From assembly GCA_951406725.2 (NCBI GenBank), contig OX597819.1, positions 40,610,001 through 40,674,000 on the forward strand: DNA of 64,000 bases. The letters are read 5' to 3'. Of the stretch, positions 21,715 to 54,530 are shown piece after piece; position 1 is the first letter of the stretch; each line of letters opens with the position of its first letter. Position numbers and translations under genes: made by a program. The notes beneath the pieces are model-generated. The model searched no databases. It saw only the letters and a program-made list of their open reading frames with translations, and was not told where the DNA came from. Source of the stretch: Octopus vulgaris. Its lineage: Eukaryota.

Positions 21715-23400
21715 TCATCACCACTGTTTAATGTCTGCTATTCATTCTGGCATGGGTTGGATGGTTTGACTGAGGATTGGCAACCTCGGAGGCTGCACCA
21801 GGCCCCAATCTGATCTGGCAAGGATTCTACAGCTGGATGCCCTTCCTAACACCAACCACTCCGGCAATGTAGTGGTGCTTTTTACATGCCACCAGCACAG
21901 GAGCCAGTCAGGTGGCACTGGTATCGACCACTCTTGAATGGTGCTTTTTTACGTGCCACCAGCACTGGCATCACCCACACTCGAATGGTGTGCTTTATGT
22001 GCCACCAGTACAGGTGCCAACTAGGCAGCACTGGCATCGGCCATGACAACAATTTCACTTGATTCAACAGGTCTTCTAATAGCATCGGCCATGGCTACAA
22101 TCTCACTTGGCTTGTTGGGTCTTTTCAAGCACAGAACATCTCCCAAGGTCTCGGTCGCTTTTCATTGCCTCTGCGAGGCCCAACATTCGAAGGTTGTGCT
22201 TCGCCACTTCATCCCAGGTCTTCCTGGGTCTACCTCTTCCACAGGTTACTTCCACTGTTAGGGTGTGACACTTCTTCACACAGCTGTCCTCATCCATATG
22301 CAACACATGACCATACCAACGCATATCTGATACTTCTTATGTCCAACTTTTCTCTCAGGGTGCTTACACTCTGTTGTGCATGTACACTGGCATTACACAT
22401 CCAGTGGAGCATACTAGCTTCATTTCTTTCAAGCTTATGCATGTCCTCAGTAGTCACAGACCATGTTTCATTGCCGTGTAGCATGGCAGTTTGCACACAT
22501 GCATCAAAGTCTACCTTTCACTCTGACTATTCTTATCTTATTCTAGTAGTTTTGCTCTCAGAGCATCCACCCCTGCTACTGACTTGGTCACCTAGGTAAC
22601 AGAAGCTATCAACAATTTCTAGTTTTTCCCCCTGGCATGTGATGGAATCTTGTTTTCTGTACATCTTCAGTGTTTATTGCCCCTGTGCATCTGCCACACA
22701 CAAACACTATCTTCTCAGTTAGCCTTCCTTTGATATTGCTGCACCTCTTATGTGTCCATAGCTTATACTGGGTACATCTTATGGAGTTTCTACCTACACC
22801 TTTTCTACAGATCAAGCAGGGCCATCTACCTAAGGGATTTGTGATTTGTCTGCTTTCCTACTTACTAAGACTTTTGTTTTAGCTAGATTGACTCTAAGGC
22901 CCTTCGATTCTAGACCTTGCTTCCATGCATGAAACTTCTTTAGTATTGGTAGTGACTCAGCTATGAGAGCAAGGTCATTAGCATAGAGGAGTTCCCAGGG
23001 GCAACCTGTCTTGAATTCCTCTGCTATTGCCTGGAGGATTATGATGAATAAAAGGGGACTAAGGATTTATCTTCACTATACTCATTGCCAACCCTCACCT
23101 TACTGACAGGATCTTGTACAGCTCTCACCAACTACTCATCTATCCCTAGTTTCCACACTGACCACCAGATAAGGGACCAGAGGACCCTGTGAAAGGCTTT
23201 CTCCATGTCAATGAAAGCCAAGTACCAAGGTTTATCTTTGGCTAGGAATTTCTCCTGTAGCTGTCTTACCAGAAATATAGCATCAGTGGTGCTTCTCACT
23301 GGCACAAACCCAAACTGCATCTCATTTAAACTAACTATGACCTTCTATGTGACTTTCATCATCTTAATTTGCCCCCAGGCCATTCCTTTGTTTTAACCAA
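21715..23400 (-). mobile_element. Degenerate RTE-like LINE (RT, PHD-like finger, 3'UTR)
   Basis: QFGFVP-RSTTDAIF, DMEKAF, CRKGVGRNSIRC--KLWTHKRC and MRWYGHV across several frames; the YADD motif reads YAND. Confidence 0.92.
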
Positions 23401-25269: not shown

Positions 25270-27283
25270 CAAGGCAATTAGAAGCATGAAGACAGGGAAA
25301 GCCCCAGGCCCATCAGGAAATACTAGAGATGCTCAAAATATCTGGCAGTGTCAGCTATAGCCTAGTCACCCATATAGTTAACCAGGTGATACATGAAGGA
25401 GTCATACACAATGACTAGTGTAGCAGCATAATAGTCAACGGCTACAAAGGTAAAGGTGACGCCTGAGATACAAATAATTACAGAGGTATCAAGCTGTTGG
25501 ATCAGGTAATGAAGGTTATGGAGAGGGTCATAGCCCAACTGATTAGGGACAGAGTCAACTTGGACGAGATGCAGTTTGGGTTCGTGTCAGGGAAAAGCAC
25601 CACTGATGCCATATTTCTGGTGAGACAGCTGAAGGAGAAATACCTAGCCAAAGATAAGCCCCTGTACCTGGCTTTCGTTGACATGGAGAAAGCCTTCGAC
25701 AGGGCTCCCCGATCCCTTATCTGGTGGTCAATGAGGAAACTAGGGATAGATGAATGGTTAGTGAGAGCTGTGCAAGCCATGTACAGGGACGCTGTAAGTA
25801 AGGTAAGGGTTGGCAACGCGTACACTGAAGAATTCAAAGTAGAGGTTGGGGTCCACCAGGGTTCAGTCCTCAGCCCCCTCCTATTTATCATTGTCCTCCA
25901 GGCAATTACGGAGGAATTCAAGACAGGATGCCCCTGGGAGCTCCTCTATGCTGACAACCTTGCTCTAATTGCTGAGTTACTATCAGAACTGGAGGAGAAG
26001 TTTCAGGTGTGGAAGCAAGGATTAGAATTGAAGGGCCTTAGAGTCAACCTAGCTAAAACAAAAGTCCTAATAAGTAGGAAGGTAGACAAACCACAAACGC
26101 CTTCAGGTAGATGGCCCTGCTCGATCTGTAGAAAAGGTGTAGGTAGAAACTCTATAAGATGTACTCAGTGTAAGCTATGGACACATAAAAGGTGCAGCAA
26201 TGTCAAAGGAAGGCTAACTGGGAAGATAGGTTTTGTATGTGGCAGATGCTCAGGAGCAATAAACAATGAAAATCTGCAGGAAACAACTTCCGTCACTTTC
26301 CAGGGGTAAAAACTAGAAGTAGTTGATAGCTTCCGTTACCTAGGTGACCAAGTCAGTAGCGGGGGTGGGTGTGCTGAAAGTGTAACTGATTAAGAATAGC
26401 CTGGGCAAAGTTCAGAGAGCTCTTACCTCTGCTAATGACTAAAGGCCTCTTGCTCAGAGTAAAAGGCAGACTGTATGACTCATGTGTACAAACAGCATGG
26501 CAGTGAAACATGGGCCGTGACTGCTGAGGACATGTGTAAGCTCATGGGGAATGAAGCCAGTATGATCCGATGGATGTGTAATGTCAGTGTACATACTCGA
26601 CAGAGTGTAAGTACCTTGAGAGAAAAGTTGGACCTAAGAAGCACGACCTTCGAATTTTAGGCCTCACCAAGGCAATGACTAGTGACCGAGACCTTTAGAA
26701 ATATGCTGTGCGTGAGAAGACCCGGCAGGACAAGTGAGTCCATCCCGTGTCCCTTGCCAGGGATGTAGCCAGCCCACTTATGTGTGCCTTTCCTTCCTTG
26801 GACACGCGAAGACCTGTTGAGGCAAGTGAAGTCGAAATTGAACCAATCCTATGACTGGCATCTGGCAGTTGCCAGTGCCGCTGGACTGACTCCTGTGCTT
26901 GAGGAGATCTATTGAGTCAAGTACACCAACATCAAAAATCAATGGAAACTGTAGTTGTGATCCCTGGGCCAGTGGCACGTAAAAAGCACCATCCGAACGT
27001 GGTTGATGCCAGCGCCGCCTTGACTGGCTTCCGTGCTAGTAAAAAGCACCAATCCGATCGTGGCCGTTGCCAGCCTCGCCTGGCACCTGTGCCGGTTGCA
27101 TGTAAAAAGCACCCACTACACTCACGGAGTGGTTGGCATTAGGAAGGGCATCCAGCTGTAGAAACACTGCCAGATCAGACTGGAGCCTGGTGCAGCCTTC
27201 TGGCTTCCCAGATCCCCGGTCGAACTGTCCAACCCATGCTAGCATGGAGAACGGACGTTCAAAGATGATGATGATGATGATGA
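25270..27283 (+). mobile_element. 5'-truncated RTE-like LINE with a 270-aa RT ORF remnant and complete 3'UTR
   Basis: KAPGP, NYRGIKL, QFGF, DMEKAFD and GVHQGSVLSPLLF motifs. Catalytic YADD reads YADN. PHD-like Cys/His insert; (GAT)n tail at 27263-27283. Confidence 0.95.
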
Positions 27284-27550: not shown

Positions 27551-27697
27551 GACAATTCGACAATTCACATCGGATATCTTCGTGATAGAACAGGCACACA
27601 CATAGACAAGAACAAGATCGCGCGCGCACACACACAGAGTTCACAGTAGCTGTTACAGAGGTCACGAAGATATCCGAAAAGAAGTGTAGAATTGTCA
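27551..27697. repeat. Inverted repeat upstream of GGACT (perfect 16-bp core tcggatatcttcgtga / tcacgaagatatccga)
   Basis: Arms at 27570-27585 and 27662-27677, with outer gacaattc/gaattgtc extensions. Confidence 0.85.
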
Positions 27698-27770
27698 AAG
27701 TTTTGTCGAGTTATATCGAAGGATTGCTCTAATTTGTTTACTATCCTTTATTGTATGTTTACTTCTGATC

Positions 27771-27965
27771 ATGACGGTTCAACTGGAACGTGTCTTCGTC
27801 TATGGTACACTCAAACGTGGTCAACCCAATCATTTTGTGTTGGAAAATGTAACACACGGTTTGGCTAAATTTATAGGCGATGCAACTACTGCCCTTCGAT
27901 ACCCGTTGGTCGTTGCTTCTCAATATAACATCCCTTTTCTGTTACCATTTGAAGGGAAAGGAAAC
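27771..27965 (+). CDS. GGACT: Gamma-glutamylaminecyclotransferase-like (AIG2/GGCT-like fold), coding exon 1 (65 aa)
   Basis: VFVYGTLKRGQPNH...YPLVVA--YNIPFLL is the family signature; canonical donor AAC|gtaagt, phase 0. Confidence 0.95.
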
Positions 27966-28333
27966 GTAAGTGTTAATACACCAAATTTATTTTATTGTAT
28001 TTTTTAACGATCCAGGATCTTTAGTTACCTAGAAATTATGTTAAAAACTGCCGTTCAAACCGAAAAAATCCACGATCCCATTCAAGATTAAATTAATGTA
28101 ATTTCAGTTTTGAAAAACGAGACATTAAACAATGTACGAATGCCGAGGAATTTTACATAGTTTCGATATATATATATATATGTCAGTCATGTTTACGTTG
28201 TTGTTTAGCCCTAGGTCTATCTCGATATGTGATCAAAGATGCTCCAGCCGTAACAAGACTAATAATCTAATGCAGTAATCTTCCAACTTTTTCTTGTCGG
28301 TTAACTCCTCGGCAAGTTCGTAATTGTTTTTAA

Positions 28334-28736
28334 GGCGGCGAGCTGGCAGAAACGTTAGCACGCCGGGCGAAATGCGTAGCAGTATTTCGTCTGCCGTTAC
28401 GCCCCGAGTTAAAATTCCGCCGAGGTCGACTTAACCTTTCATCCTTTCGGAGTCGATAAATTAAGTACCAGTTACGCACTGGGGTCGATGTAATCAACTT
28501 AATCCGTTTGTCTGTCCTTGTTTGTCCTCTCTGTGTTTAGCCCCTTGTGGGTAGTAAAGAAATAAGTATTTCGTCTGCTGTTACATTCTGAGTTCAAATT
28601 TCGCCGAAGTCGACTTTGCCTTTCATCCTTTCGGAGTCGATAAATTAAGTACCAGTTACGCACTGCGGTCGATGTAATCGACTTAATCCATTTGTCTGTC
28701 CTTGTTTAGCCCCTTGTGGGCAATAAAGAAATAAGT
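28334..28736 (+). mobile_element. SINE of a second family with a tandemly repeated 3' half
   Basis: ggcggcgagctggcagaaacgttagc head; the gcctttcatcctttcggagtcgataaattaagtacc core occurs twice. CpG retention suggests a young copy. Degenerate relatives lie near 17.9-18.1, 32.2-33.3, 36.6, 54.9 and 59.9-60.1 kb. Confidence 0.82.
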
Positions 28737-29549
28737 TAACTCCTCGGTTTGCCATTTATCCCTTATTTCTAATAAACAAAAAATTTAACAGTTACAGGAA
28801 ATAAAAATACGCTTAACAACTTTGAGAAATTTAGATTTAACATTTTATTCTTTGTTTTATTTATATTTTATTCTTTGCCTTGTAAATTTTGACGAACCAG
28901 GGAGTAAATTTACCATAGTTATAAATGGTTGATCGACCGAAGTACTGTAACGAAGTTCGCCGAATTGGTGACTTTTTCTGGATTATAACTTACCGAGTAA
29001 ATAAATTCAGAAAATCACACGAATGACAGATGCCATCTATATTATATTTCAATAATATACATGACATTTTTCATTTGATTTTTTTTATTATTATTATTTT
29101 ATGAATGAAAACGTGTAAAGTTTAAATAAATGATGTCAACACTCCAGCTTGTCATCAGCTTCTTTTTTTTTATACTGTGACTGAATAGCAGTCAGGAACA
29201 ATTACCATAATGGCCCCATGTGAACCCGTCTTTTGGTTATAACTCCTGCCAAATTCAGAAATGAACTTGGAAGTGGAGGGATAATAGTTCCCAACGTGCC
29301 TCGCCAACCTGTTGCCATTAAGTTTGCCAAACAAGCAGTGATATCCATTGGTGGTTCTCACAAGGCAAACAGTTCATTTCAGTAAAATATAAATTATAAA
29401 ATATTGAAACAATAATGTACTTACGAATTGACAATACATGACTCGTATATGGTAACAATTTAGATGTATATATAGCGTTACACGTGCTTGATAATTATTG
29501 AAAAGTTTATAAATTTTGCTTCGTTTTGAAACTTGTTACTTTATATACA

Positions 29550-30065
29550 CCGTAAATCCTCGAGTATAGTCCGCCCTTGAGTATAATACGCAGGGGATTT
29601 TTAGGGGGCTGTACCTCTGAAAAACCTAAACCTTGTGTATAATACGCACGCACCCCTTCTCTAACTTGAGTCAAGGAGGTCTATATATAACGTCCTTGGT
29701 TTGTAAAAATGTATACGATAACGTCCTTTATTATTATTGTATATATAACATAATGCAAACCTGTAGCTTTTTTGTGCATTTTGTTTGCAGAAAATAAAGA
29801 AATAACAGTAATAATGTTTAATAAATGTTGCTTACTGCAAGTTATAGATGATTCTTTTATGACTTCATTGCTTTCAGGCTTAGCTTAAGGTATTTTCGCG
29901 CCCAACATCACAAAATTTGTGTCTGAATAAACATTGCCGGACAGCAAATAGAGACTTGAACATTGCTTAGAAAATAATTTTTTTAACCTCGTGTATAATA
30001 CGCACTAGAGATTTTGACCTTTAAATTTTGGGGAAAAAATGCGGATTATACTTGAGGATTTACGG
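29550..30065. mobile_element. Tc2/pogo-like MITE
   Basis: TIRs ccgtaaatcctcgagtatagtccgc / gcggattatacttgaggatttacgg followed by TA. Confidence 0.85.
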
Positions 30066-30772
30066 TATATATTTCTTGGAACAGTGAATCTCGAAACACA
30101 AAATAATCTGAACATAAAATTGATTTTAATTTTCTTGGCGAAACGGTTAGGGTTAGGCCGAAAACAGGTGGTATTCTATACCTCCGCCCCTAAAAAGTTT
30201 TAGATTTTTAAGAACTCAGTGTGTGTAGGGAAATTACGTGGTACCAGCCCAATACAAGGGTCCTGAAATATTGACTTAACGATTCCTCTGTGAATTCTTG
30301 ATTGTTTTTAATCTATTTTTTTTTTAAATAAAATTTATTATATTTGTTCATTTTATTGTGATATATGATAGAAATAATGGCTCTCTTTCGTTTTGACTCG
30401 ATTCCGTGATCACGTGTTGTCTTGTTAACTGTCAGTTGACAAGAGAATGGGAAGAGAAAGCTAATGGGTTGTGAAAACCATTTTGGTCCGAAAAACGGGG
30501 TGAGGTGGAAGCCTCGGAAATTTCACCCCCACCCCCATTGATCTTTTCACCAGCACAATTTTCTTTAAGGAAAAAAACAAAAACAAGCGGATTTTTTTTT
30601 TTCGCAGAAAACAAGGGTAAATTTTCAGAGTAACACCCCACGAAAAGTACAGAATTCAGTGTGTACATTTTTTTGAGTCAAAACGAATTGGTTAATGCTG
30701 TACAGCCACCTGGAGGTTTTGAGTTCAATCCCAAGCAAGAGATTAAAATAATTCACAAAAAAAATCGACTGA

Positions 30773-31172
30773 AGGAGTGGCTGTGTGGTAAGTAGTTTGT
30801 TTACCAACCACATGGTTCCGGGTTCAGTCCCACTGCGTGGCACCTTGGGCAAGTGTCTTCTACTATAGCCTTGGGCCGACCAAAGCCTTGTGAGTGGATT
30901 TGGTAGACGGAAACTGAAAGAAGCCCGTTGTATATATGTATATATATATATGCGTGAGTGTGCTTGTGTGTCTGTGTTTGTCCCCCTAGCATTGCTTGAC
31001 AACCGATGCTGGTGTGTTTTTGTCCCCGTTACTTAGCGGTTCAGCAAAAGAGACCGATAGAATAAGTACTGGGCTTACAAAAGAATAAGTCCCGGGGTTG
31101 AGTTTCTCGATTAAAGGCGGTGCTCCAGCATGGTCGCAGTCAAATGACTGAAACAAGTAAAAGAGTAAAGAG
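30773..31172 (+). mobile_element. Near full-length tRNA-derived SINE
   Basis: ggagtggctgtgtggtaag...ggttcagtccc...aaacaagtaaaagagtaaagag. Confidence 0.92.
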
Positions 31173-31794
31173 AGTGAAGAAAAAAAAAGGAAGTCAGAAA
31201 ACACAGAGAGTGTAATGAAAATAGTGGACCTCTGCAGATCAAATAAAGGGATGGGTTCAAAATTCTGATAAAACAACTGAGTTCAACACAAGACACCTGA
31301 AGAAGGCTGGAGGATACAACAGTGAAATCAACAGGAAAGATGAAGACATCAATCCGACTAATATAAACAGTATACATAAATAGTGTTATCATCTGAAGAA
31401 TAGCTCAAACTATATCTAGAAGTGTTGATTACAAATAGGATTTTATCAGTACAAAGATTAACAATGCAACACTTTGCTTAACTTACTAAGATTTACTTCA
31501 TAAAAATTTTTTTATAAATACTTTTCTTGATAAAAGAATCAAAATATCAGAAGTAGTTTAGCCATTCAAATCAAGAGAACTACTATAGTTTATAGCTTGT
31601 CAAACCAAGTTAAAAAGAATAAGTTATCAGCCTTTTAGTTTTGACAGTTTGTGCTTAAATTTTGGCCTTTAATTAATGTCTATCAGAAGCAAATAATATA
31701 TGTTCTAAATGACATCTATCTTCCTTAATGTCAAGATAAAACATTTGGAGTGAAACCAAACAAGAGGATATCGTTATATATAAAATTGAAGTTG

Positions 31795-32053
31795 GATTTA
31801 GATTCCTAACTACTCCCACATTTTTCGGTGCAGTTTAACCAAAAGCAGGTATCTTATGGTCATCATTCATATCGAGCCCTTCTGGGTATTAGCGCACGTC
31901 TATGATGAGTCTACAATTTAAAAAAAATTTACCATCATTATTCCGCATTTTTAATGATATTTTTCTCGGGTTATATAAGGGAAGTAACTCTCTAAAAATG
32001 CTTATATAGTTATTTCCCTTACAAACCCGAGCAACGCCGGGCGATACTGCTAG
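31795..32053 (+). mobile_element. 5'-truncated Helitron (same family as 3119-3497)
   Basis: Ends cccgagcaacgccggg-cgatactgCTAG|T. Confidence 0.8.
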
Positions 32054-33378
32054 TTGGAAACAAGTCTTTGGAGAGAAGGGAGAATAAATGTTAAAACAAA
32101 AAGTGGAAAGGTGCGCATTTTCTCAAACTTGAACTTGCAAACAGAAATGTTAACAAGATGAAAATTTATAATTCATAATCCTTTCTACGATAGACACAAG
32201 GCCTGAATTTTGGGGATGGCCTAGTACATTACCTTGACTTCAATGCTCAACCTATTGTTATTTTATCAATCCTGAAAGAATGTAAGGAAAGTTAACTCTG
32301 GCAGACTTTGAACTTAGGATGTAATGCCATAAGAGATGCTACTAAGTATTTTCAGCCTGCTAACATTCTGCCAGTTTGCCATCTTTAACAGCTTCAAATT
32401 TTGGTTCAAGACCAGCAGTATTAGAGGAGGAGAGTAAGTCGATTACATCAGCTCTAGTAGATGGCCAGTACTTTATTTTATAGACACCGTGTAGATGAAA
32501 GGCATAGTTGATCTTGGTGGTATTCGAATTCAGAACATGAGAGGGTTGGAAAATTACTGCCAAGCATTTTTGCTGATGTGCCAATGTTTCTGGTACACTC
32601 CTCTTGGAATTTATAATTCTTAATAAAAGGCAGAAATGCATAGGTTTTAGGGTCCAGTTTGAAAATCTCTGCAGGGTGGTTACAATGATCGCTCTGTCCA
32701 CTACAAGTGGCAAGTACAAACTTGTAGCATGTCTACGTCATTAAGAATTTCACTTTGCAACCATAGGGTTCTGATTTCAATCCTGCTGAGCATCACTTTG
32801 ATAAAGTGTCTTCTATTGTAGTCTTATGTCATTTTAATTTTATATCAAATCATTTCATTATGTCTCTCTAAGCAGTGGGTGGTGAGCTGCCAGGATTGTT
32901 AGCAAGCTAGACAAAATTCTTAGCAGCATTTTTCTGGCTTTCTATTCTGAGTTCAAATTTTGCTGAAGTTGACTTTACCATTCATCTTTTCCAAGTCAAT
33001 AGATTAAGTACCACTTGAACACTGGGGTCAATGTAATCAACTCTCCTCTCCCTACAAAATTCAACACCTTGTGCCTGTTGTAGAAAAGTTTATTTCTCTA
33101 AGCAAGCAAAGACTTGCAGAATTGAAAATGTGTTAGATAAAATGTTTTGCAGTATTCAGTTAACACTTCTTATGATTTGAGTTCAAATACTGTTGCCTTT
33201 CATCCTTGGAGGATCAATAAAGTACCAGTCAAGTACTGAGGTTGATGCAATCAATTAACCCCTTCCTGAAATTTCTTGCCTTGCACCCATGCTAGAAACA
33301 GCTGTTTCTCTAATCATCCAAATAATAAGGAATTTTGGAATCTAGGATTGTAGTTTGTGAAACAAGACAACATTGTGA

Positions 33379-34465
33379 AAGAATAAAAGTAGTATTTGCA
33401 TAATTGACAATGTTTGTGACAGGAGTCATGCCAAAAGTACTTATGCTGTGATTTTGTGTTTTGCTTGTATACATATATGCATATTGGTACAATGAAAATT
33501 GAAGTGTCCATCAATGTATTTCCTGAACACTGATATACAGTAGTTTACAGATGCACATGTGTATGCACATACACATGTCTGACTTCAGAACAAAGCTTCC
33601 ACTCTCCAAATTGCACTGTGTTAGTCAACATATGTTTTATGAATGGTATTTGGTTTAGTGATAATTTACTGAATCTTGTTCTCTGTGTGTTTGTCTAAAA
33701 ATTGCTGTATCCTGGAACTTATGGAAAATTTACCTGAGTGATTGTAGTTAAGCACAATATATATAAATGCCTTAAATTTGGGATAAAATTAAGTAATGTA
33801 TATCAAAATAAATGTTTCGAGAATTGCTTTTCCTTAGTAGTATTACAACTTTTATATGTTTTGCAGTTTATTTCTGGTGAAGTCTATGATGTAGATGAGA
33901 AGATGCTCAAACGACTAGATGAACTTGAAAGTCATCCAGATACTTACAAACGTGAAAAGATATCAGTTATTTCCAACAACAATAGTTTTATGTCCTGGTG
34001 CTATATTCTTCAGAGGCCTCAGCCTAAACTTCTAAACCTAAAATTACTTGATAATTACAACAACAATACCCGTGCTGAAGAGGATAAATATATGAGGCGT
34101 ACTAAAGATGATTCTCCTTATTCAATAGAAGTGATGGAAAGTTAACTTCTAACTCTAATGTTATGTTAACTCTTACATACGTATAAGAGTTACCATACAT
34201 TTATATCAAATTATGTTTTAATTTTATTTTATGAGAATTAAAGATAAATCAAATATATTTTACCACTTTTGTTGACGTCTCAACTACATATAATTTTATT
34301 TTTTAATGGCTTAGTCTAAGGGGAAAGACTAGGGTTTTTAACTTTTTATGGAACTGTAAGACTAGTTGGAGAAAGGGAGAAGTTATTTTCGAACCATAGA
34401 TTTGTTCAGAATGTTTGCAATAGAGTGAACTTGGCTGAAGACATGTAAGGACCAGGTGGTAGTAT
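33379..34465 (+). repeat. Local duplication, copy A (intron end, exon 2a and 3' flank)
   Basis: Aligns to 39537-40582 from gaataaaagtagtatttgcataatt to gtaaggaccaggtggt. Confidence 0.93.
33867..34145 (+). CDS. GGACT: GGACT-like terminal exon 2a (92 aa plus stop; spliced protein 157 aa)
   Basis: Acceptor tgttttgcag|TTT, phase 0, joins ...GKGN|FISGEVYDVDEKMLKRLDELE (family G-VY-VD--ML--LD-FE motif with catalytic Glu). ATTAAA at 34237. Confidence 0.93.
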   Translation, partial: FISGEVYDVDEKMLKRLDELESHPDTYKREKISVISNNNSFMSWCYILQRPQPKLLNLKLLDNYNNNTRAEEDKYMRRTKDDSPYSIEVMES

Positions 34466-34729
34466 TAAACTGGGTGACTGATTAAATCTGCCACCCAACA
34501 AGAACAGTCCCCCTAGTAGGTTTCTTAGCTACTCATATTTTGAAAGAGAAGGTGGTGATGATCTGGGTGGAGCTGGGGAAAAAATACAAATGTTGAGGAT
34601 AATGTGTCTGGGTGGCCCTTCAGGTATGAAGTGAATGGAGACAAGAAATGTGTAGGTGGATAGACATTGTAAGAGTGTATGGGAAAGTGAGGGATGGGGA
34701 ATGAGTTAAGTGGCATGACTATAATAACT

Positions 34730-35040
34730 GGCTCACCATCAGTTATGATGATAAGGGCCCAGTTGATTCAATCAGTGAAATAGCTTGCTCGTGAAATTAA
34801 CATGCAAGTGACTAAACACTCCACAAACATGTTTATCCTTAATGTAGTTCTCATGGAGATTCAGTGTGACACACAAAGGCTGACCCTTTGAATTACAGAT
34901 GCAACTCATTTTTGCTGATTGAGAGGTCTACAGCAACATGAAGTAATGTGTCTTGATCAAAAACACAACATGCCACCAGGAATTGAACTCACAACTTTAT
35001 TATTATAAGCTGAATAACCTAACCACAACACTACGCTTCT
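34730..35040 (-). mobile_element. Third SINE family, uninterrupted copy
   Basis: gctcgtgaaattaac...aatgtgtcttgatcaaaaacacaac...ggaattgaactcacaac matches the split copy at 53497-54090. Confidence 0.7.
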
Positions 35041-35821
35041 TCACCAGTTGACTTCTGCAGGATTGGAACTCAGAACATAACAAGATGGAATAAATCACTC
35101 TAAGTTTTGTGTCCAGTGTGCTGACGATTCTGCCAAGGATGAATATAACACTGTGTAACATGATTTTTGTCCTTGGGTAGCAACTGTTATTTCCTATTTG
35201 CCTATTCCTAGAAAGTATGAAAAATGGCTAATATTTCCTTCAAACTTTGCATTTGTTACGTTTATTCAAATCCCAAAGAATCCTTCTCAATACATGGCTA
35301 TAATGCTCTCTCACTACTCTTGCTCATGATCAGAGATGTATATATTGTCAGCCACTAAAGGACATACTCAAGTGGTTAAGGTGAAGCAAGTCTGTGATAT
35401 TAAATAGAATATTTGCTACAATGATATTTCTGCTTCAGCAACTCAGTGCTGAATCTCTCTGAAATGTAATGGAAAATAGGTTAGTTTCAAAACATTGATG
35501 TCCTGGTTACATAAGCAAAGTTTGAAGGGAATAATAGTAATTCTAGATAGAAGTAAATAGGAAATAGCACTTACTGATAAGCCAAAAAGATTTTAAAAAA
35601 TTTAAATTTTGTTACACAGTGTAAAGAATGATGAACAGGTGTTGAGGAATAGATGAATGAATAGCAACAGAATAATAATTATGAGACAGTAGACAGGGAA
35701 AGGGTGACAAAGAGAAATGACATATGGTGGGGTCAGTTGCCAGAGTGTGTGGGGAACAGAGATAGGTATAGCACATGGGGAGAGTGAAAAACATGGTGAT
35801 AGAAAAGGTGGGTTGGGAAGA

Positions 35822-36253
35822 ACATCATCATCATCATTTAGTGTCCGCTTTCCATGCTAGCATGGGTTGGACAGTTCAACTGGGGTCTGGGAAGCCAGAA
35901 GGCTGCACCAGGCCCAGTCTGATCTGGCAATGTTTCTACGGCTGGATGCCCTTCCTAATGCCAACCACTCCGTGAGTGTAGTGGGTGCTTTTTATGTGCC
36001 ACCGGCACAGGTGCCAGACGGGGCTGGCAAACGGCCACAATCGGATGGTGCTTTTTACGTGCCACCGGCATGGAGGCCTGTCGGGGCGGCGCTGGCAACG
36101 GCCACGTTCGGATGGTTTGCTTATGTGCCACCGGCACTGGTATCACAGCAACAATTTCCATTGATGTTGAACGATTTCGATTTTGATTCTGATTTCCACT
36201 TGCCTCAACAGGTCTTCACAAGTAGAGTTTTGTGTCCCAAGGAGGAAAGGTAT
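35822..36253 (-). mobile_element. RTE-family 3'UTR copy
   Basis: Family body through cacttgcctcaacaggtcttc. Confidence 0.88.
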
Positions 36254-38229
36254 TGTCCCAATTTAAGCATAAAAGATGCATACTGAGTGAAATGATTTTG
36301 GGTAGTTAAAAGATTACTGATATCAAGGAAACAGCAATTAGGCAGATGACCGGTGGTGGTGTTTTGAGGAGGAAATTGGGCAAAGGGTCCAGTTGTGCAT
36401 ACATGTGCTCACACTGTGCTTCTAGAACTTAGTTTTGCTGAATTTGGTGGGTCTTCTTGAGAACCACATATCACCAGTCACTGGTCCCTTGTCATCTCTA
36501 TATGGTTGAGAATCCTGAAATCAGGCTTCACCACTTCATCACTTATATATCTTCCTAGGACAGACAAAGGTATTAAGTTGATTACATCGACCCCAGTGCA
36601 TAGCTGGTACTTAATTTATCGACCCTGGAAGGATGAAAGGCGCGCAGAGTAAAGTCCATTATTGTATCAGAATAGGCTTCATAGACTCGCAACTTTTCAA
36701 TACTATGCCAAAAAGCCTCAGATGTAGATATGGATGTGTTCAAAGACAAATTAAACAAATTTCTATCTGATAGAGCTGATAAATCCCCATCACACATCAC
36801 AGCAAGAAACGCAAAGAAGAACAGCCCTGATCAACTCATTTCTTCACCAGGACCAATTCTGAAAACAGGACTGGGAAGTGAGTCTAAAATAAACAAACAT
36901 TAGCACTAATGGCAGTGCCCCAGCATGGTCACAACCTCTGGCTGAAACTGATAATAGCGCAATAGAATTTTTACAAAGCCTCCTAAATGTAAATGAAATT
37001 ACAATATAAGAAGACTATTTGAAATTCATGAATCTTTCAGTTGTTCTACAGTCAAGATTGGATTTAAACAATGGGTGGTCTGAGGCACTTCAAGTTCGGT
37101 GGGCCCCTTATATGGAAGAATTAAAGTCTTGGAAAATTACCAAATTTAAATCTCAGTGTAATTGAATTTGATGAGTTATTTTAAATAAACAACTGAAAAT
37201 GTCACTTTATAAGATACACTTTTAAAAATTCAAATTTTGTTTTTCACATATCCACTTGTGGTGTTTGACTTTTCCTTTATTGTGAAAAGTATAATGAAGG
37301 AAGAAGAGTTGCTAAAATTTTTCAAATGTTTCTGAATGTAGAATATGATTAAATGACAGAATATTACAAAAAAGAATGAAAGTCATTTTAGTGGTTGTTG
37401 CTGTTCCAAAGGCACAATGCATGTGTGTGTGAGGGGGTGGAGAAACCAACATTTAAAAGACATGAATTTTTAAAGATTTTTTTTCAAAAGTCTTCCCTTC
37501 ATTGTTTTGTAATGCACAAAAGAAGAGGAAAATCCCGATAGAAACAGAAATTCAAACTTATATGGGACAGCTATTTCCATAAAAGTCTGCTTTTTTCAGT
37601 TTCTAGTAGGAGTGGTTGGGGGTGCACAATGAGTAATATTTCCTGCAGTTTTGACTTTGAAAACAAATATATTTTTTTATGAATGTTCACTAACTTACAA
37701 AAAAAAAAAAATATCAGCTAAGCAAATTGACCTTCTCTAAATTCAGTAAAAGCACTCTAACATATCCAAAACACTATTTCAGAAAATTAATTACTCTCTG
37801 AGCATATAAAAGACAAAATGAGTAAGACAAGATAAGGTAAATTAGCATCTTCATTTCTCAGGAATTACATTTGAAAAAGATTTATACACATCTGTATCCA
37901 TCCTTAGACATCAGAAATGCAAAAAAAGTGTAAAATATCTTGATCAAATGAAAGAGAAACAAAGAAAAATGGCACATAATATGAAATTAATGAAACTTCA
38001 CTAAATCTTAAAACTCAACATAAAATATTTACTATATCTTCTTCATGATCTGCTGGAGTGGCTTTCTTCCATATATATTTATGCACAATGTAATTAAAGA
38101 GAGGAAATTATTGAAATTAGATATTACTCATTTTATCCCATTTTAGATATCATTTTTTGATACTTGAAAACTATCAAATTGGAATTAGTGTGGGTAAAAA
38201 TTGATGTGGAATCCAAGTGAGAAAAGAAT

Positions 38230-38818
38230 TATCATCATCATCGTTTTACGTCCGTTTTCTATGCTAGCATGGGTTGGAAAATTTTGACTAAGGGCTGGCG
38301 AACAAGATGGCTGCACCAGGCTCCAATCTTGATTTGGCAGAGTTTCTACAACTGGATGCTCTTCCTAATGCCAACCACTCTGAGAGTGTAGTGGGTGCTT
38401 TTTACGTGCCACCGGCACGGGGGCCACTCAGGCGGTACTGGCAACGACCTTGCTCGAATCCTTTTACACATGCCACGAGCACAGGTGCCAGTAAGGCGAC
38501 GTTGGTAACGATCACGCTCAAATGGTGCCCCTTTATGTACCACTGGCACGGAAACCAGTTGGTTGCTCTGGCAATGATCATGCTTGGATGGTGCTCTTGG
38601 CACCCTACTAGCACAGGCACAAGTGCCAGTAAGGTGACGCTGATAACAATCACACTCCAATGGTGCCCTTTAAGTGTCACTGGCATAGAAGCTGCTTAAG
38701 CCGCTCTGTCAATGATCATGTATGGTGCTCTTTGCACCCTGCTAGCACGGATGCCAGTCATCGAATTTGATTTTGATTTCGATTTTGCTTTTGATTGATT
38801 GATTTCACTTGCCTCAAC
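38230..38818 (-). mobile_element. RTE-family 3'UTR copy with expanded subrepeats
   Basis: (CAT)n tail and multiple tggtgc.../ggcac units. Confidence 0.82.
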
Positions 38819-39211
38819 CACCAAAAATTATCCAGATATTCTATTAACAACTTCAGTTACAGTCAACTCAAAGTCGACACAAAACTTCTTGGAAAAGAGT
38901 ATCTGTCATCTTATTATGTTTCAAACTCTCACAACTTCAACAACTATACTGACCAATTTTTACTCCCAAAGATGAGGCAATGGTATGGAATTGGCATGCA
39001 ATATTTGCAATGTAATGGTTTCAAACAGATAGGGCAAAAATGACAAGAAATTGGAAATTACTCATTTTGTCCCACTTTCCTATTTCAAGTATTTGACAGA
39101 ATGATGAAAAATAGAAAAAAGAAAGTAAAAGGTTTGATTTAATGAAAAACATTTGAACATATATGCAATAATTTCTAAAGCTAAAACAGATACCATCACC
39201 ACCACCACCAC

Positions 39212-39537
39212 CATCATCATTATTTAACGCCCGCTTTCCATGCTGGCATGGGTTAAACGGTTTGACTGGGGACTGGTGAGCCAGAAGGCTGCTCCAGGCT
39301 CCAATCTGATCCGGCAGAGTTTCTACAGCTAGATGCCCTTCCTAACACCAACCACTCTGAGAATGTAGTGAGTGCTTTTACGTTCCACCGGCATGTGGGC
39401 CAGTCAGGCGGTACTGGCAATGACCATGCTCAAATGGTGTTTTTATGTGTAACCTGCACAGGAGCCAGTCCAGCAGCACTGGTAACACCCTCGCTCGAAT
39501 GTTGTTTTTCACATACCACCATCACAAGTGCCAGTAA
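39212..39537 (-). mobile_element. RTE-family 3'UTR copy abutting the start of duplication copy B
   Basis: Family body ends at ...caagtgccagtaag, directly joined to aataaaagtagtatttgc. Confidence 0.82.
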
Positions 39538-40582
39538 GAATAAAAGTAGTATTTGCATAATTCACAGAATGTTTGTGACAGGAGTCATGCCAAAAGTGCT
39601 TATGCTGTGATTTTGTGTTTTGTTTATATACATATTGGTACAATGAAAATTGAAGTGTCCATCAATATATTTTCTGATCTCTGATATACAGTAGTTTACA
39701 GATGCACATACACATGTGTGGCTTCAGCAAAATTTCCACTCTCCAAATTGCACTGTTTTAGTCAACATATGTTTTATGAATGGTATTTGGTTTAGTGGTA
39801 ATTTACTGAATCTTGTTCTCTGTGTTTGTCTAAAAATTGCTGTATCCTGGAACTTCTGGAAAATTTACCTGAATGATTGTGGTTAAGCCTTAGGGCTGTG
39901 ATGAGGTTAACCAATGAATATCAACATACATGTTTCAAGAATTGCTTTTCCTTGGTGGTGTTACAATAACTTTTGTATTCTTTGCAGTTTATTTCTGGTG
40001 AAGTCTACGAAGTAGATGAGAAAATGCTCAAGCAACTTGATGAGTTTGAACTACATCCAGATGTCTACAAACGTGAAAAGATATCAGTTATTTCCAACAA
40101 CAATAGTTTTATGTCCTGGTGCTATATTCTTCAGAGGCCTCAGCCTAAACTTCTAGACCTAAAATTACTTGATAATTACAACAACGATAACTGTGCTGAA
40201 GAGGATAAATATAATGGGGATACTGAAGAGGATACTTTTTATCCATCTGAAGTAATGGAAAGTTAACTTTCAACTCTAATGTTAACTCTTACATACATAT
40301 AAGAGTAACCATACATTTATATAAAATTATGTTTTAATTTGATTTTATAAGAATTAAAGATAAATTAAATATATTTTACCACTTTTATTGATGTCTCAGT
40401 TATATATAATTTTATTTTTTAATGGCTTAGTCTAAGAGGAAAGACTAAGGTTTTTGACTTTTTATGGAACTGTAAGACTAGCAGGAGGAAGGGAGAAGTT
40501 ATTTTCAAGCCATAGATTTGTTCAGAATGCTTTCAATAGAGTGAACTTGGCTGAAGACATGTAAGGACCAGGTGGTGGTGTT
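39537..40582 (+). repeat. Local duplication, copy B
   Basis: Aligns to 33379-34465. Confidence 0.93.
39988..40266 (+). CDS. GGACT: GGACT-like alternative terminal exon 2b (92 aa plus stop)
   Basis: Intact acceptor tattctttgcag|TTT with the same length and phase as 2a, no stop or frameshift. LDEFE catalytic motif retained; ATTAAA at 40353 and 40364. Expression is not shown. Confidence 0.8.
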   Translation, partial: FISGEVYEVDEKMLKQLDEFELHPDVYKREKISVISNNNSFMSWCYILQRPQPKLLDLKLLDNYNNDNCAEEDKYNGDTEEDTFYPSEVMES

Positions 40583-43500
40583 ATTCATTGGGACCAAATC
40601 CAGAACCACTCAGTTGCAAAGCAAACTTGTTAACCCCACAGCTATACCTGCACTCATTAACAACCATTAATTACAAGAGTATTTAGTGTGTTAATTTTGC
40701 ATTAATATTTCATTGAAACATGAGCATTTTTTTTTGATAAATCAGAGATTCTGGCCATTTAAATATAGTTTTATGTGGATAAAAAAGAGAGTCAGAGATT
40801 TGAGTCTTTATATTTCCATCCAGATCATATTTTGGCATTTGTGAAGAAGATACTTGAATCTGTTAATGCTAGCCTTCAAAGAACATACAGCTACATTAGC
40901 ACCAGTCTGTTGAAATTGTATTCTATCTTAAGTCATTAGCCTAATTATCATCATCATCACTGTTATTTAACATCCATGTTCCATGCTTGCATGGGTTGGA
41001 TGGTTTGACAAGATCCAGGGTTTTGAAGACTGCTTTATGCTTCACGGTCTACTTTGGTATGGTTTCACTTAGTGGATACCCTGCGTATTGCCAACCACTT
41101 TATAGTGCATACTAAATGCTAAAACTGTTCTGTTTGTGCTACCAGCATTAGTGCGGTCACCACGCAGCTTGGAAAACTATGAAAGGCAGCTTTATGCTTA
41201 GAGAAGAGGAGCCAGAACGGAACAGGTTTTTTGCTGTAAAGAAGCTAGTTTAATGTAAATGAAATTACAGTCTAAGAAGACTATTTGAAATCTATGAATG
41301 TTTCAGTTGTCTTACAGTTTCTAGATTTAATCATTCCATGAAGACATTTATATTTCAAGGACTCAAAATTATGTGAAAGTACAGATGCAAGTACAAGTCA
41401 ACACTTCCATATTCTTTTGGCAATCCTTACTACATTTGTATTCTTTGGAAAACTGCAATTTTCACTGTTTCAAAAAAATTGTGCCAGAGGCTTTCTGGGA
41501 AAATATTCTTCAAGATTCTTTGTATTCCACACATTTATTATTATGCAGGGTAATTAATAGTGCCCCTTCCTCAAGATTCTTGGTTGCAGTTATAGATTAA
41601 AGTGTGGATGATCACATACTATCATATCTTACTGAATCTAGCCTTGGTCATTTTCCTCAAAAGAATTTTTCTTTTTACAGTGAAGAAGAATTAAAAAATT
41701 GAATTGTGTTTATGTTCATTATTTCTTTGGAAGGAATCAATCAACTGTCTCAATACAAAATATGCCTCTTTGTTATATTGCTACATGTAAAAGGATTTTG
41801 ATCTTTCATCATCCAAAACGTTCCATTCAGAGTAAGTCTGGGTCATACTCTGAGTGAGATTAGCTGCAACAAGAACTTGTACCTCTGTAATCAGACCGTG
41901 AGAATGTCACACTGGGTCTGATTGAAATGTACCTATTAGGAAAATAAAAAAATACTGAAAATAAAATAATTAAAGGATGTAAAAGGGTTCTTTTAATTAT
42001 TCCCAATGTTTCTAACATCACAAATGAGTGAAGATGGTTGGATGCATTAAGAAAAAGAAATGTATTAGAATTTGGCCAACTTAATCCTTTAGCAGAGCTG
42101 GGAAGGGAGATAACTCAAAACCTTGCTACTTTATTAGGCTGCATTTATCTTTCTTGCTTGACTAAAGAAAAATATTTGTTAACCCGATGGGTGGTTGGGT
42201 GAAAAATTAGCGAAACCTAAGCATCAGAAATGAGTAGTGACAATAGACGCTGATAGAGTCGTGAGGACAAAGCATGACTGCAAACAAAATTCCTTCTTTA
42301 ACTGCTTCTACCACCAAAAAGCCACCACAATTCGTCATCCGGCTAATTCTATTTTGATAACCTGTCAGAAAAATATGAACGTCGACACTAGCTAAGCACT
42401 CCAGTGTATCAAAAGTCATCACCACACAGAAAATTCTTTACATGATATTGTGAAATAAACTCATTTTCTTTTCTTTTCTTCATTTTTTGCTCTACAAGAC
42501 CGTCGCGTCTGGGTTTTCTTTTTAATGTTTATAAATATGTGAAGAACTGATTTCGACTCGTTTACTTCGTCAGCTCTAGCTCTCTATCCTAAAATTACAG
42601 TATCAAACCATGAATTTCGATCAGAATAACATTCGTGGTGATTGTTTTAATATGAGCGTTATTAATAATGCAATATTTGTATTAACTATAATCGTAACAT
42701 ATATGACAGCATTTTATTATTATAAAATGAACAGATCTTTTCTGTTGCCGTCACAGTTTTTGAAATTTTAAAATTTAGTGAAAATTTTCAAATTTGGTAT
42801 GTTGATGTAATTTTTCACGCCGAATCTGATTTTATTATTCACTTGTGTCTGAAAAAAATTAGTAAAATGTTAGAGATTTAAAGCTTGATCATTTTTACCT
42901 AATTAGAAAACAGGACTTGGAAGCTAGCATTTTATGCGTGGTAGCTGTCTATGACAACATTACGACGATAAACTTGTATGAAGTTTTGAAAGTTTAATGA
43001 ATAAAATCATGTCAAATATTGGAACAGGCATGTGTACAATACAAAAAGGGAAAAAAATCCTCAATGAATTCTTTTTGTACATAATTTTCTCTTGCAAGTA
43101 AGAAACCGCATCCTCTTCAGTTTTCAATTTCTCCAACGTATTCGAAAGGCTAAACGAGTTGGTTGCAGACATACCTCTATTTAGGTTGAAAAGGTCCAGG
43201 AAAACACGGTTCGAAATTATGAAAATGAGATAGTGACACGACAGCAACCGAAAACATCTGTTCGTTTCTCAAAAAAAAAAAAAAAAAATCCATCGGAAAA
43301 TGACAAAAATGAGGTACAACAAGCATTTAGAAAATAAGCAGACTATACGGTTGAAGTCTCTGGTTTGAAGATATTTTTCTTCTTCCCACCATTCTCTAAA
43401 ATGCTATGTGTACTGCTTTTTATTTATTTGTATTATTGCAAAAATGAATTTCATTCCTGTAATTAGCATATAAAAACTACATTAGTACATCAAATTTGAA

Positions 43501-43699: not shown

Positions 43700-44099
43700 G
43701 GATCTTTTCGGTTTGAATGGCAGTTTTTAAAAATAATTTCCACGTAACTAAACACTTTTAATCTTCGTATACTGATAGAATGTGTTTAGAAAACATCTTT
43801 TTCTCTTGGCTTTATTGAGAAAATTCTACAGATTGTAAGATATTTGTTGTTGTTTTTCTGCAATTTCAACCAATCAATGACGTCTATTCTGTGCCGTATG
43901 AATATATCCCTCATTTAAGAAACAGATTGGGTTTATTTACATTTGTGAAGAAAAAAAATATACCCTTCCCCCTACCCTTACCCCTAACCCTAACTCTAAA
44001 ACAGATTGAAATGCAATAGATCGATACTAGGGTCATAATTATGGGTGACAATTTCATATGACACCACTAGAAAAACTGCCGTTCAAACTGAAAAGATCC
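43700..44099 (-). mobile_element. ~400-bp TIR element (GGATCTTTTCGGTTTGAACGGCAG family)
   Basis: Terminal inverted repeats and an internal (ccctaa)-like tract; opposite orientation to copies at 45596, 52852 and 54120. Confidence 0.88.
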
Positions 44100-44409
44100 T
44101 TTTTCGGACTAACATGAAAAAAAGGCTGTGAGAATAATTTCTATAATCCGTGGTGAGGTGGGGGTACAGTTAAAGCACGTGTGCGTGGATGCACACATGT
44201 ATACTCACACACACTCATACAAATGCACACACTCATATGTGTAATGCCATCGTATAAATTATTGTCATCGTATACATGTCAAGTGTTTGTCATTTAATAA
44301 ACTTATTTGATTAATTACTTTAAACAATAGCAATTATCCTGCTATCTCGGTGTAAAGCATGCTACTGATGAATAAGCTCCTATAGCTTCAACGCAGTCTT
44401 TAATTTAGG

Positions 44410-45595: not shown

Positions 45596-45974
45596 GGATC
45601 TTTTCGGTTTGAACGGCAATTTTTTCTAGCGGTGTCATGTGACATTGTCACCCATAATTACGACCCTAGTATCGATCTATTGCATTTCAATCTGATTTAG
45701 GGTTAGGGGTGGGGGAAGGGTATCTATTTTTTCTTCACAAATGTAAATAAACCCAATCTGTTTCTTAAATGAGGGACATATTCATACGGCACAGAATGTT
45801 TTCATCTCAATAGACGGTCATTGATTGGTTGAAATTGCAGAAAATGAAGAAAAAACCCCCAAATATCTTACAAACTATAGAATTTTCTCAATAAAGCCAA
45901 GAGAAAAATATGTTTTATAAACATATTCTACCAGTATACGAAGTTTAAAAGTGTTTAGTTACCTAGAAATTATG
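45596..45974 (+). mobile_element. GGATCTTTTC-family TIR element, right TIR missing
   Basis: Collinear with 52852-53261. Confidence 0.85.
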
Positions 45975-52851: not shown

Positions 52852-53261
52852 GGATCTTTTCTGTTTGAACGGCAGTTTTTTCTAGCAGTGTCATATGAAA
52901 TTGTCACCCATAATTATGACCCTAGTATCGATCTATTGCATTTCAATTTGTTTTAGGGTTAGTGGTGGGGGGAAGGGTATCTTTTTTCTTCACAAATGTA
53001 AATAAACGCAATCTGTTTCTTAAACGAGGGACATATTCATACGGCACAGAATGTTTTCACCTCAATAGACGTCAGTGATTGGTTGAAATTGCAGAAATTG
53101 AAGAAAAAGAACAACAAATATCTTATAAACTATAGAATTTTCTCCATAAAGCCAAGAGAAAAAGATGTTTTATAAACACATTCTACTAGTATACGAAGTT
53201 TAAAAGTGTTTAGTTACGTGGAAATTATTTTAAGAAACTGCTGGTCAAACTGAAAAGATCC
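52852..53261 (+). mobile_element. GGATCTTTTC-family TIR element, complete
   Basis: Both TIRs present. Confidence 0.88.
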
Positions 53262-53496
53262 TAGTTAAACTCAACTCAAAAACGTATATATACAAATAAT
53301 TACTTTTTCTCAAGTTACATATAACTACAATGAATGACAAAATTATTTGACAGAACTATCATTAATTTTCTTAAATTAATATAATAGTATACTGTATGTT
53401 AAAATGACTATCGTGCCTATCCCACAATGTAATTAATTGTCTTAGTGTAAACTCCCTTGCCAAAATAACCACAATTCTAAAACTAACAATAGACTG

Positions 53497-54090: not shown

Positions 54091-54119
54091 TAAAATCTAA
54101 CAAGATCAAGGAAATTTCA

Positions 54120-54530
54120 GGATCTTTTCGGTTTGAATGGCAGTTTTTTCTAGCGGTGTCATATGAAATTGTCACCCATAATTATAACCCTAGTATCGAT
54201 CTATTACATTTCAATCTGTTTTAGGGTTAGAGGTGGAGGGAAGGGTATCTCTTTTCCTTCAGAAATGTAAATAAACCCAATCTATTTCTTAAACGAGGGA
54301 CATATTCATATGGCACAGAATGTTTTCATCTTAATAGACGTCATTGATTGGTTGAACTTGCAGAAATTGAAGGAAAAAAAACAACAAATATCTTACAAAC
54401 CATAGAATTTTCTCAATAAAGCCAAGAGAAAAAATGTTTTATAAACATATTCTACCAGTATATGAAGTTTAAAAGTGTTTAGTTATGTGGAAATTATTTT
54501 TAAAAACTGCCGTTCAAACCGAAAAGATCC
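54120..54530 (+). mobile_element. GGATCTTTTC-family TIR element, complete
   Basis: ggatcttttcggtttgaatggcag ... ctgccgttcaaaccgaaaagatcc. Confidence 0.9.

What the first reader, a model, noticed from the sequence alone, without database searches (positions are those of the whole stretch)
27771..40370. GGACT-like gene with one shared N-terminal exon and two intact, duplicated catalytic-half terminal exons
Seen: exon 1 (phase-0 donor) can join either 33867-34145 or 39988-40266. Both are 279 nt, open, with TGCAG acceptors, the same stop position and their own ATTAAA signals. I found no second copy of exon 1 between them. Established: in GGACT the YGTL loop is N-terminal and the catalytic Glu lies in the LD-FE motif, and the enzyme breaks down gamma-glutamyl-amine/epsilon-lysine products of transglutaminase crosslinks. 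Inference: alternative last-exon choice would give two 157-aa enzymes sharing one half of the active site and swapping the other. I know of no description of this arrangement for GGACT, but could not search for one.
Basis: partly seen in the sequence, partly recalled or inferred. Interest (0 to 1): 0.8.

Follow-up and report, generated by a model that had tools for sequence, protein, structure and literature searches.

The report
Octopus enzyme with two swappable last exons
An octopus gene for an enzyme that clears gamma-glutamyl-amine bonds (GGACT family) splices one first exon to either of two duplicated last exons, an arrangement also annotated in two other Octopus species, which likely gives two active versions with the same catalytic residues but differently charged tails; it is a new case of a known gene design.

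Summary
Exon 1 (27771-27965) is single-copy in the genome. Two open 279-nt last exons (33867-34145, 39988-40266; 74 of 92 residues identical) lie in a ~1.1-kb tandem duplication. Assembled RNA-type contigs join exon 1 to 2A (168-nt side) and to a pure 2B (2 runs, 2 studies, only 10 nt of exon 1). Both 157-aa products are already in NCBI for O. vulgaris and are RefSeq isoforms X1/X2 in O. sinensis and O. bimaculoides. Copy B groups across species and keeps 8 copy-specific sites, so the duplication predates a ~34-Myr split and B is not a dead copy.

The 'swapped half active site' reading is only partly right. All four exon-2 catalytic-site residues are the same in both copies. Differences sit beside the catalytic Glu, on the cavity rim and in a basic-to-acidic tail, around a 90-nt identical core that looks gene-converted. 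Four of 7 runs gave an A/B hybrid contig, probably an assembly effect, unresolved. This is a new member of a known kind (duplicated alternative last exons); functional divergence is plausible but untested.

The parts
27582..27770 (+). 5' UTR part of exon 1 (furthest 5' contig start seen)
   Evidence: X1 contig 27582-27965
27771..27965 (+). Shared coding exon 1: residues 1-65 with the YGTL loop and Ile54; phase-0 GT donor at 27966
   Evidence: PF06094 positions 1-53; single copy in the genome
33379..34467 (+). Duplicated block A (intron end, exon 2A, 3' flank)
   Evidence: 87% identical to 39536-40583
33867..34145 (+). Last exon 2A coding part (residues 66-157; LDELE; basic tail). Product identical to CAI9724073.1 and to O. 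sinensis RefSeq X1
   Evidence: joint 27965>33867 GT..AG
33945..34034 (+). 90-nt core identical between the copies (partner 40066-40155); likely gene-converted
   Evidence: P=2e-5 against uniform spread of the 33 differences
34237..34242 (+). Candidate poly(A) signal of 2A; contigs end at 34249 and 34262
39536..40583 (+). Duplicated block B
   Evidence: only two full copies in the genome
39988..40266 (+). Last exon 2B coding part (LDEFE; acidic tail). Product identical to CAI9724072.1; orthologous to RefSeq X2 of O. sinensis and O. bimaculoides
   Evidence: contigs of X1 and X16 begin with the last 10 nt of exon 1
40353..40369 (+). Two candidate poly(A) signals of 2B; contigs end at 40371 and 40373, others run on to 40447 and 40472

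Best explanation
This is an Octopus GGACT-family gene whose single first exon is spliced to either of two tandem-duplicated last exons, likely giving two active enzymes that break down gamma-glutamyl-amines with the same catalytic residues and that are predicted to differ modestly in substrate preference or binding partners through the cavity rim and an oppositely charged tail. SHOWN: the gene anatomy, both splice joins in assembled contigs, annotation of both products in three species, and all nine catalytic-site residues in both products. INFERRED: (1) The duplication arose after the Argonauta split and before the O. vulgaris/O. bimaculoides split. (2) Isoform B is made when the 2A acceptor is skipped and transcription reads through the ATTAAA of 2A; the 2B acceptor has the longer AG-free zone (46 vs 24 nt). 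(3) Gene conversion has homogenised the middle of the exon while selection kept two divergent patches. (4) Copy B carries the derived state, an acidic tail, which would favour cationic substrates or partners such as gamma-glutamyl-polyamines; A keeps the more usual basic residue at 143. Odds: about 0.9 for two real isoforms, about 0.5 for a measurable functional difference.
For: Joint 27965>33867 (GT..AG) in X3 with 168 nt on each side, and in X1. Contigs with B-type letters at all 12 listed diagnostic sites start with the last 10 nt of exon 1 in X1 and X16, two studies. Both products are in NCBI for O. vulgaris and are RefSeq X1/X2 in O. sinensis and O. bimaculoides. B copies of three species form one clade, 94/97 (just under the tool's star threshold). 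Eight of 29 variable sites are copy-specific across both species, 3 are species-specific. B differs between species at 9 of 92 residues, A at 19 of 92 (Fisher p=0.063). Residues 66-91 show purifying selection between copies (dN 0.13, dS 0.62; Fisher p=0.006). Both AlphaFold models are confident (pLDDT 91 and 94.5) and match mouse/human GGACT best (TMq 0.82-0.84). The eight residues after Tyr140 have net charge +1 in A and -4 in B in both species; position 143 is Arg/Lys in 17 of 29 outgroup rows and Asp in 0 of 29.
Against: The pure exon1-2B contigs hold only 10 nt of exon 1, below the tool's 31-nt bridging standard, at depth 2 and 8; the runs are only guessed to be RNA or unlabelled. Four of 7 runs laid gave an A-5'/B-3' hybrid contig instead. 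No catalytic residue differs. Phe and Leu at 85 are both common in the family (16 and 12 of 29). The charge swap maps to mouse 145-149, described as a solvent-exposed terminus outside the cavity (PMC2954230). Tails this acidic occur in 2 of 29 outgroup proteins. The excess of replacement changes in the tail is not significant (dN 0.32, dS 0.13; p=0.50). The whole-protein charge gap is -1 vs -10 here but only -1 vs -4 in O. bimaculoides. No activity, tissue or protein-level data.
Confidence: 0.6

Rival explanations
1. Both isoforms are made and active but biochemically equivalent. The duplicate is kept for dosage or for a different 3' end, and the tail differences are near-neutral.
For: All four exon-2 catalytic-site residues are identical; the models share one fold; the tail is poorly conserved in the family; the tail dN excess is not significant; 2B contigs run on past the ATTAAA in X2 and X3.
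Against: Eight copy-specific residues have held in both species while the middle of the exon was homogenised; five of them lie in 142-149.
Confidence: 0.3
2. A third, hybrid form (A-type catalytic helix with B-type tail) is real in many animals, from conversion or unequal crossing-over in the 90-nt identical core. This can coexist with the best explanation.
For: One contig carries copy-A letters at 12 listed sites in 40023-40065 and then copy-B sequence in X2, X4, X5 and X8: 4 of 7 runs, three studies, two organism labels. The protein alignment shows signs of past conversion.
Against: Logan contigs are simplified k=31 de Bruijn paths (10.1101/2024.07.30.605881), and a 90-nt identical core is where such paths can cross. 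The runs were chosen for holding 2B words, which enriches for this outcome. X1 and X3 show separate A and B 3' arms; X1 and X16 show a pure B 5' arm. All six Octopus protein records are non-hybrid. No usable seamless splice site lies in the core (one weak AG|GC).
Confidence: 0.2
3. Exon 2B is a decaying duplicate that is spliced only as noise.
For: An open frame by chance has P of about 0.22 for stops alone; exon divergence (11.8%) is no lower than flank divergence (8.1%); the 2B 3' contig is thin in X3.
Against: B is intact and more conserved than A across a ~34-Myr split (9 vs 19 of 92); purifying signal around Glu86; pure B contigs in two studies.
Confidence: 0.05
4. The second copy is an assembly artefact (haplotig) or the end of a separate gene with its own first exon.
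For: None from the calls.
Against: The copies are 87% identical with shared breakpoints inside repeats, both are annotated in three species, there is no other exon 1 in the genome, and 2B contigs carry this exon 1's end.
Confidence: 0.02

Closest known systems
RefSeq 'putative gamma-glutamylcyclotransferase CG2811' isoforms X1/X2 of O. sinensis (XP_029638373.1 or XP_036360007.1; XP_036360008.1) and O. bimaculoides (XP_014778863.1/864.1; XP_014778865.1); O. vulgaris CAI9724073.1 and CAI9724072.1
   Same: The same two products; A is identical to O. sinensis X1, B differs from O. sinensis X2 at 1 of 157 residues.
   Different: These are automatic annotations without description. The O. bimaculoides RefSeq models carry a 22-aa hydrophobic N-terminal extension that has no start codon in this window.
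Mammalian GGACT / A2LD1 (PDB 1vkb, 3jub, 3juc, 3jud)
   Same: Fold (TMq 0.82-0.84), PF06094, nine catalytic-site residues including the Glu82 equivalent, Glu86.
   Different: About 39% identity; a longer C-terminal tail; activity untested here. I found no report of duplicated last exons in GGACT.
Tandem exon duplication-derived C-terminal substitutions / 3' tandem cassette clusters (human catalogue of 236 events, PMC8373072; Drosophila PGRP-LC, CG42235, Pip, PMC6191721)
   Same: Shared 5' part with duplicated homologous 3' coding exons chosen by splicing and polyadenylation.
   Different: Here a single exon holds 59% of a one-domain enzyme with its catalytic Glu. The event looks young (one genus so far), while over 90% of the human events are older than 425 Myr. 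No docking/selector pairing is shown.
Anopheles gambiae GSTS1 and SOD3 (passage in PMC1797171)
   Same: Small enzymes with a common 5' exon or N-terminus and alternative 3' exons.
   Different: Different enzyme families; the passage read does not say that their 3' exons are homologous duplicates.
Dscam duplicated exon arrays (PMC3236188)
   Same: Alternatively spliced paralogous exons whose differences may be kept by selection.
   Different: Internal exons with no gene conversion found; here the middle of the exon looks converted and two patches stay distinct.

Membership tests
GGACT (gamma-glutamylamine cyclotransferase, PF06094) | PF06094 match above the curated cut-off | tested here: met
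   33.4, 47 and 45.4 bits for exon 1, 2A and 2B against 22.8
GGACT (gamma-glutamylamine cyclotransferase, PF06094) | YG(S/T)L loop and catalytic Glu (Glu82 in mammals) | tested here: met
   Y11-G12-T13-L14 and E86 align to mammalian 7-10 and 82 in both isoforms (PMC7022552 passages)
GGACT (gamma-glutamylamine cyclotransferase, PF06094) | Nine catalytic-site residues of mouse A2LD1 (Y7, G8, T9, L10, I50, E82, Y88, Y115, Y143) | tested here: met
   Y11, G12, T13, L14, I54, E86, Y92, Y111, Y140 in both; the last two were mapped through other mammalian rows (P0051, P0053), not mouse itself
GGACT (gamma-glutamylamine cyclotransferase, PF06094) | Cyclotransferase fold closer to GGACT than to GGCT or ChaC | tested here: met
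   Predicted models: GGACT TMq 0.82-0.84, GGCT about 0.5, ChaC2 under 0.5
GGACT (gamma-glutamylamine cyclotransferase, PF06094) | Activity on gamma-glutamylamines, releasing 5-oxoproline | not testable with these tools
   needs an enzyme assay
Tandem exon duplication-derived C-terminal substitution (alternative homologous last exons) | Two homologous 3' coding exons in tandem on one strand | tested here: met
Tandem exon duplication-derived C-terminal substitution (alternative homologous last exons) | One shared upstream exon, no separate first exon for the second copy | tested here: met
Tandem exon duplication-derived C-terminal substitution (alternative homologous last exons) | Both exons spliced to the shared exon | tested here: met
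   2A: X3, 168-nt sides. 2B: X1 and X16, 10-nt exon-1 overhang only; RefSeq X2 models
Tandem exon duplication-derived C-terminal substitution (alternative homologous last exons) | Separate polyadenylation of each exon | tested here: inconclusive
   Contigs end 7-20 nt past an ATTAAA in some runs and run on in others; no A-tail letters were listed; contigs cannot show ends
Tandem exon duplication-derived C-terminal substitution (alternative homologous last exons) | Both isoforms translated | not testable with these tools
   needs proteomics or ribosome profiling
Competing RNA-pairing control (PGRP-LC / Pip type) | Conserved docking and selector sequences | tested here: inconclusive
   Only inverted copies of a common repeat flank exon 2A; no orthologous DNA and no chance control

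The most novel reading that the evidence does not exclude
Octopus has split its apparently sole GGACT into a basic-tailed isoform for crosslink-derived gamma-Glu-epsilon-Lys and a derived acidic-tailed isoform for gamma-glutamyl-polyamines. The two are held apart by selection against gene conversion inside one gene, and a third hybrid form (A catalytic helix, B tail) may segregate through exchange in the 90-nt identical core.
Probability: 0.2. Interest if true: 0.6.

Novelty: new member of a known kind. Interest (0 to 1): 0.36.

Why it matters
If the isoforms differ in substrate preference, the pair is a natural experiment on what sets amine specificity in GGACT: the N-terminal half and all catalytic residues are constant and only 18 residues vary. 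It is also a young, datable case of duplicated last exons being kept distinct despite apparent gene conversion. If they are equivalent, it is an ordinary exon duplication already present in public annotation. Practical point: short-read assemblies may merge the two isoforms into a hybrid.

Tried and rejected
Second exon 1 or separate gene: none found. Haplotig: rejected. No RNA holder listed on record in the run search; the labels are guesses. Contig depths were not used to rank isoforms or tissues. Splicing from inside 2A to inside 2B as the source of hybrid contigs: only one weak AG|GC in the core. Signal peptide in this species: the upstream frame is hydrophobic but has no in-frame ATG. Positive selection on the tail: not significant. 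A second Argonauta isoform: none among the 42 and 21 hits (word-limited searches; the one record is named 'isoform X1', so another may exist). Earlier scan findings: none. Literature: no paper on this locus in the listings; the library lacks most subscription journals. No DNA run was laid, so the hybrid-allele question stays open. No supplementary files were read.
Full report
OBSERVATION. Exon 1 (27771-27965, 65 codons) ends in a phase-0 GT donor. Two 279-nt open exons follow, at 33867-34145 (2A) and 39988-40266 (2B), each after TGCAG and with the stop at the same codon. They share 246 of 279 nt and 74 of 92 residues. They sit in a duplicated block, 33379-34467 vs 39536-40583, 87% identical, with 8 indels in 764 aligned flank positions and none in the exon. 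ATTAAA lies at 34237 and at 40353/40364. The own genome gave 1 match for exon 1, 2 for exon 2, 2 full copies of the block and 3 PF06094 matches, all at this locus (lower bounds by the tool's note). A sensitive scan of 28100-39987 found no exon-1 remnant. The open frame is modest evidence on its own: under neutral change P(no stop) is 0.22 and P(no indel) 0.054.

IDENTITY. All three exons match PF06094 above the cut-off. A search with 2B returned 3 of 3 candidates, all Octopus. The two 157-aa products are O. vulgaris CAI9724073.1 (A) and CAI9724072.1 (B). A is identical to O. sinensis RefSeq X1, and B falls with RefSeq X2 of O. sinensis and O. bimaculoides. The arrangement is therefore already in automatic annotation for three species. 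AlphaFold models of A and B (pLDDT 91.3 and 94.5) match mouse and human GGACT best, TMq 0.82-0.84, against about 0.5 for GGCT.

SPLICING. The run search with 2B listed 24 runs, none on record as RNA; I laid 7 of them, all as Logan contigs. The joint 27965>33867 (GT..AG) stands in X3 with 168 nt on each side and in X1 with a 20-nt side (that table was cut, 197 joints not shown). For 2B, X1 (study P1, depth 2) and X16 (study P6, depth 8.2) each give a 127-nt contig covering 39988-40104 with one other letter and none of the copy-A letters; its 10 loose 5' letters are the last 10 nt of exon 1, not intron. Ten plus the 20 nt shared by both exons is the 30-nt overlap expected at a k=31 fork. This is good evidence for the exon1-2B join, but it is short of the tool's 31-nt bridging standard.

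A RESULT AGAINST THE SIMPLE PICTURE. In X2, X4 (P2), X5 (P3) and X8 (P4), 4 of 7 runs, one contig carries copy-A letters at the 12 listed sites in 40023-40065 and then copy-B sequence; in X2, X4 and X8 it also holds exon 1. The copies share a 90-nt identical core (33945-34034 / 40066-40155), Logan contigs are simplified k=31 graph paths (10.1101/2024.07.30.605881, passages), and the runs were picked for 2B words. An assembly cross-over is therefore the likelier cause. A real hybrid allele is not excluded; I put it at about 0.2. I could not lay raw reads or a DNA run.

EVOLUTION. In a tree of the exon-2 part (7 rows), the B copies of three species group at 94/97; the A copies are unresolved and the two outgroups are long branches. 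Of 29 sites variable among A and B of O. vulgaris and O. bimaculoides, 8 are copy-specific (73, 81, 85, 142, 143, 145, 146, 149) and 3 are species-specific (117, 125, 153), the latter as expected from conversion. The two species split about 34 Myr ago (10.1101/2023.05.16.540928, passage). Argonauta differs from all copies at 44-47 of 92 positions, while A and B differ at 18-24, so the duplication is likely younger than that split. B differs between species at 9 of 92 residues, A at 19 of 92 (p=0.063), exon 1 at 4 of 65. Differences between the copies are patchy: codons 66-91 dN 0.13 / dS 0.62 (p=0.006); codons 92-131 one change in 120 nt (longest identical run P=2e-5); codons 132-157 dN 0.32 / dS 0.13 (p=0.50). 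I read this as conversion of the middle with two retained patches. That is an inference from one genome's DNA plus proteins, on small counts.

WHAT IS SWAPPED. Mouse GGACT has nine catalytic-site residues and a cavity of 11-13, 79-81, 84, 133-142 and 144, with 145-149 described as a solvent-exposed terminus outside it (PMC2954230, passages). Five of the nine map to exon 1 and four to exon 2 (E86, Y92, Y111, Y140); the four are identical in A and B. Five of 15 exon-2 cavity positions differ: L85F, N132D, T133N, R134C, M141N. Phe and Leu at 85 are both common (16 and 12 of 29 outgroup rows). The eight residues after Y140 have net charge +1 in A and -4 in B in both species; position 143 is Arg/Lys in 17 of 29 outgroup rows and Asp in none, so B looks derived, though 2 of 29 outgroup tails are as acidic. 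Whole-protein net charge is -1 vs -10 here and -1 vs -4 in O. bimaculoides. The isoforms keep the same chemistry by sequence; any difference would be in the amine-side rim, partners, location or stability.

MECHANISM. Shown: the anatomy and both joins. Inferred: A is made by using the first acceptor and cleaving near 34262; B by skipping it and reading through to 2B. The 2B acceptor has a 46-nt AG-free zone against 24 nt for 2A, which fits a weaker proximal site. Inverted copies of a common repeat flank 2A (28435-28518, 28618-28702, 32978-33042 and 33195-33264 against 36557-36641) and could loop it out, but such repeats are abundant and I ran no control. GGACT acts on gamma-glutamylamines (PMC7022552, passages); the link to transglutaminase crosslink turnover is recalled, not read. 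I commit to two active enzymes (about 0.9) with modest functional tuning (about 0.5), B likely favouring cationic substrates or partners.

COMPARISON AND NOVELTY. [quoted passage not shown] Anopheles GSTS1 and SOD3 are enzyme cases with a shared 5' part (PMC1797171, passage). Dscam arrays show no conversion (PMC3236188, passages), unlike what is inferred here. Searches for GGACT, octopus and exon-duplication terms (listings only) showed no paper on this locus; the library lacks most subscription journals and no supplements were read. Earlier scan notes held nothing.

VERDICT. Real, spliced both ways and conserved within Octopus; a new member of a known kind, already in automatic annotation. 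The open points are functional divergence and the hybrid contigs. Interest 0.36.

Noticed in passing
window 27723-27770: The frame upstream of the start codon reads as a hydrophobic stretch similar to the 22-aa N-terminal extension in O. bimaculoides RefSeq models (signal-peptide-like by eye), but it has no in-frame ATG here; the only upstream ATG, at 27755, is out of frame.
   Followed up: partly
window 27704 and 27608: X2's contig has 60 unlaid letters 5' of 27704 and X3's has 30 unlaid letters 5' of 27608: possibly alleles or another 5' end; the letters were not shown.
   Followed up: no
window 36986-37052 vs 41252-41318: A further 67-nt match (90%) downstream of both blocks suggests the duplicated unit was once longer and was broken up by insertions or deletions.
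   Followed up: no
window 25467-26641 (+) and 22333-23323 (-): Two inverted, 77% identical remnants of a LINE-type reverse transcriptase (label by eye and recall; no family scan), one with a 280-codon open stretch.
   Followed up: no
window 43700-44100, 45596-45973, 52851-53262, 54119-54531; end piece at 28020-28071: A ~400-nt repeat family with 85-92% identical copies in both orientations; one end matches the start of intron 1.
   Followed up: no
window 28435-28702, 32978-33264 vs 36557-36641: Inverted copies of a common short repeat flank exon 2A and could pair in the pre-mRNA.
   Followed up: partly
window 34096, 40074, 40215, 40260: Single-letter differences recur in contigs of several runs: probably alleles; 40260 is A>G and cannot be told from RNA editing without matched DNA.
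   Followed up: no
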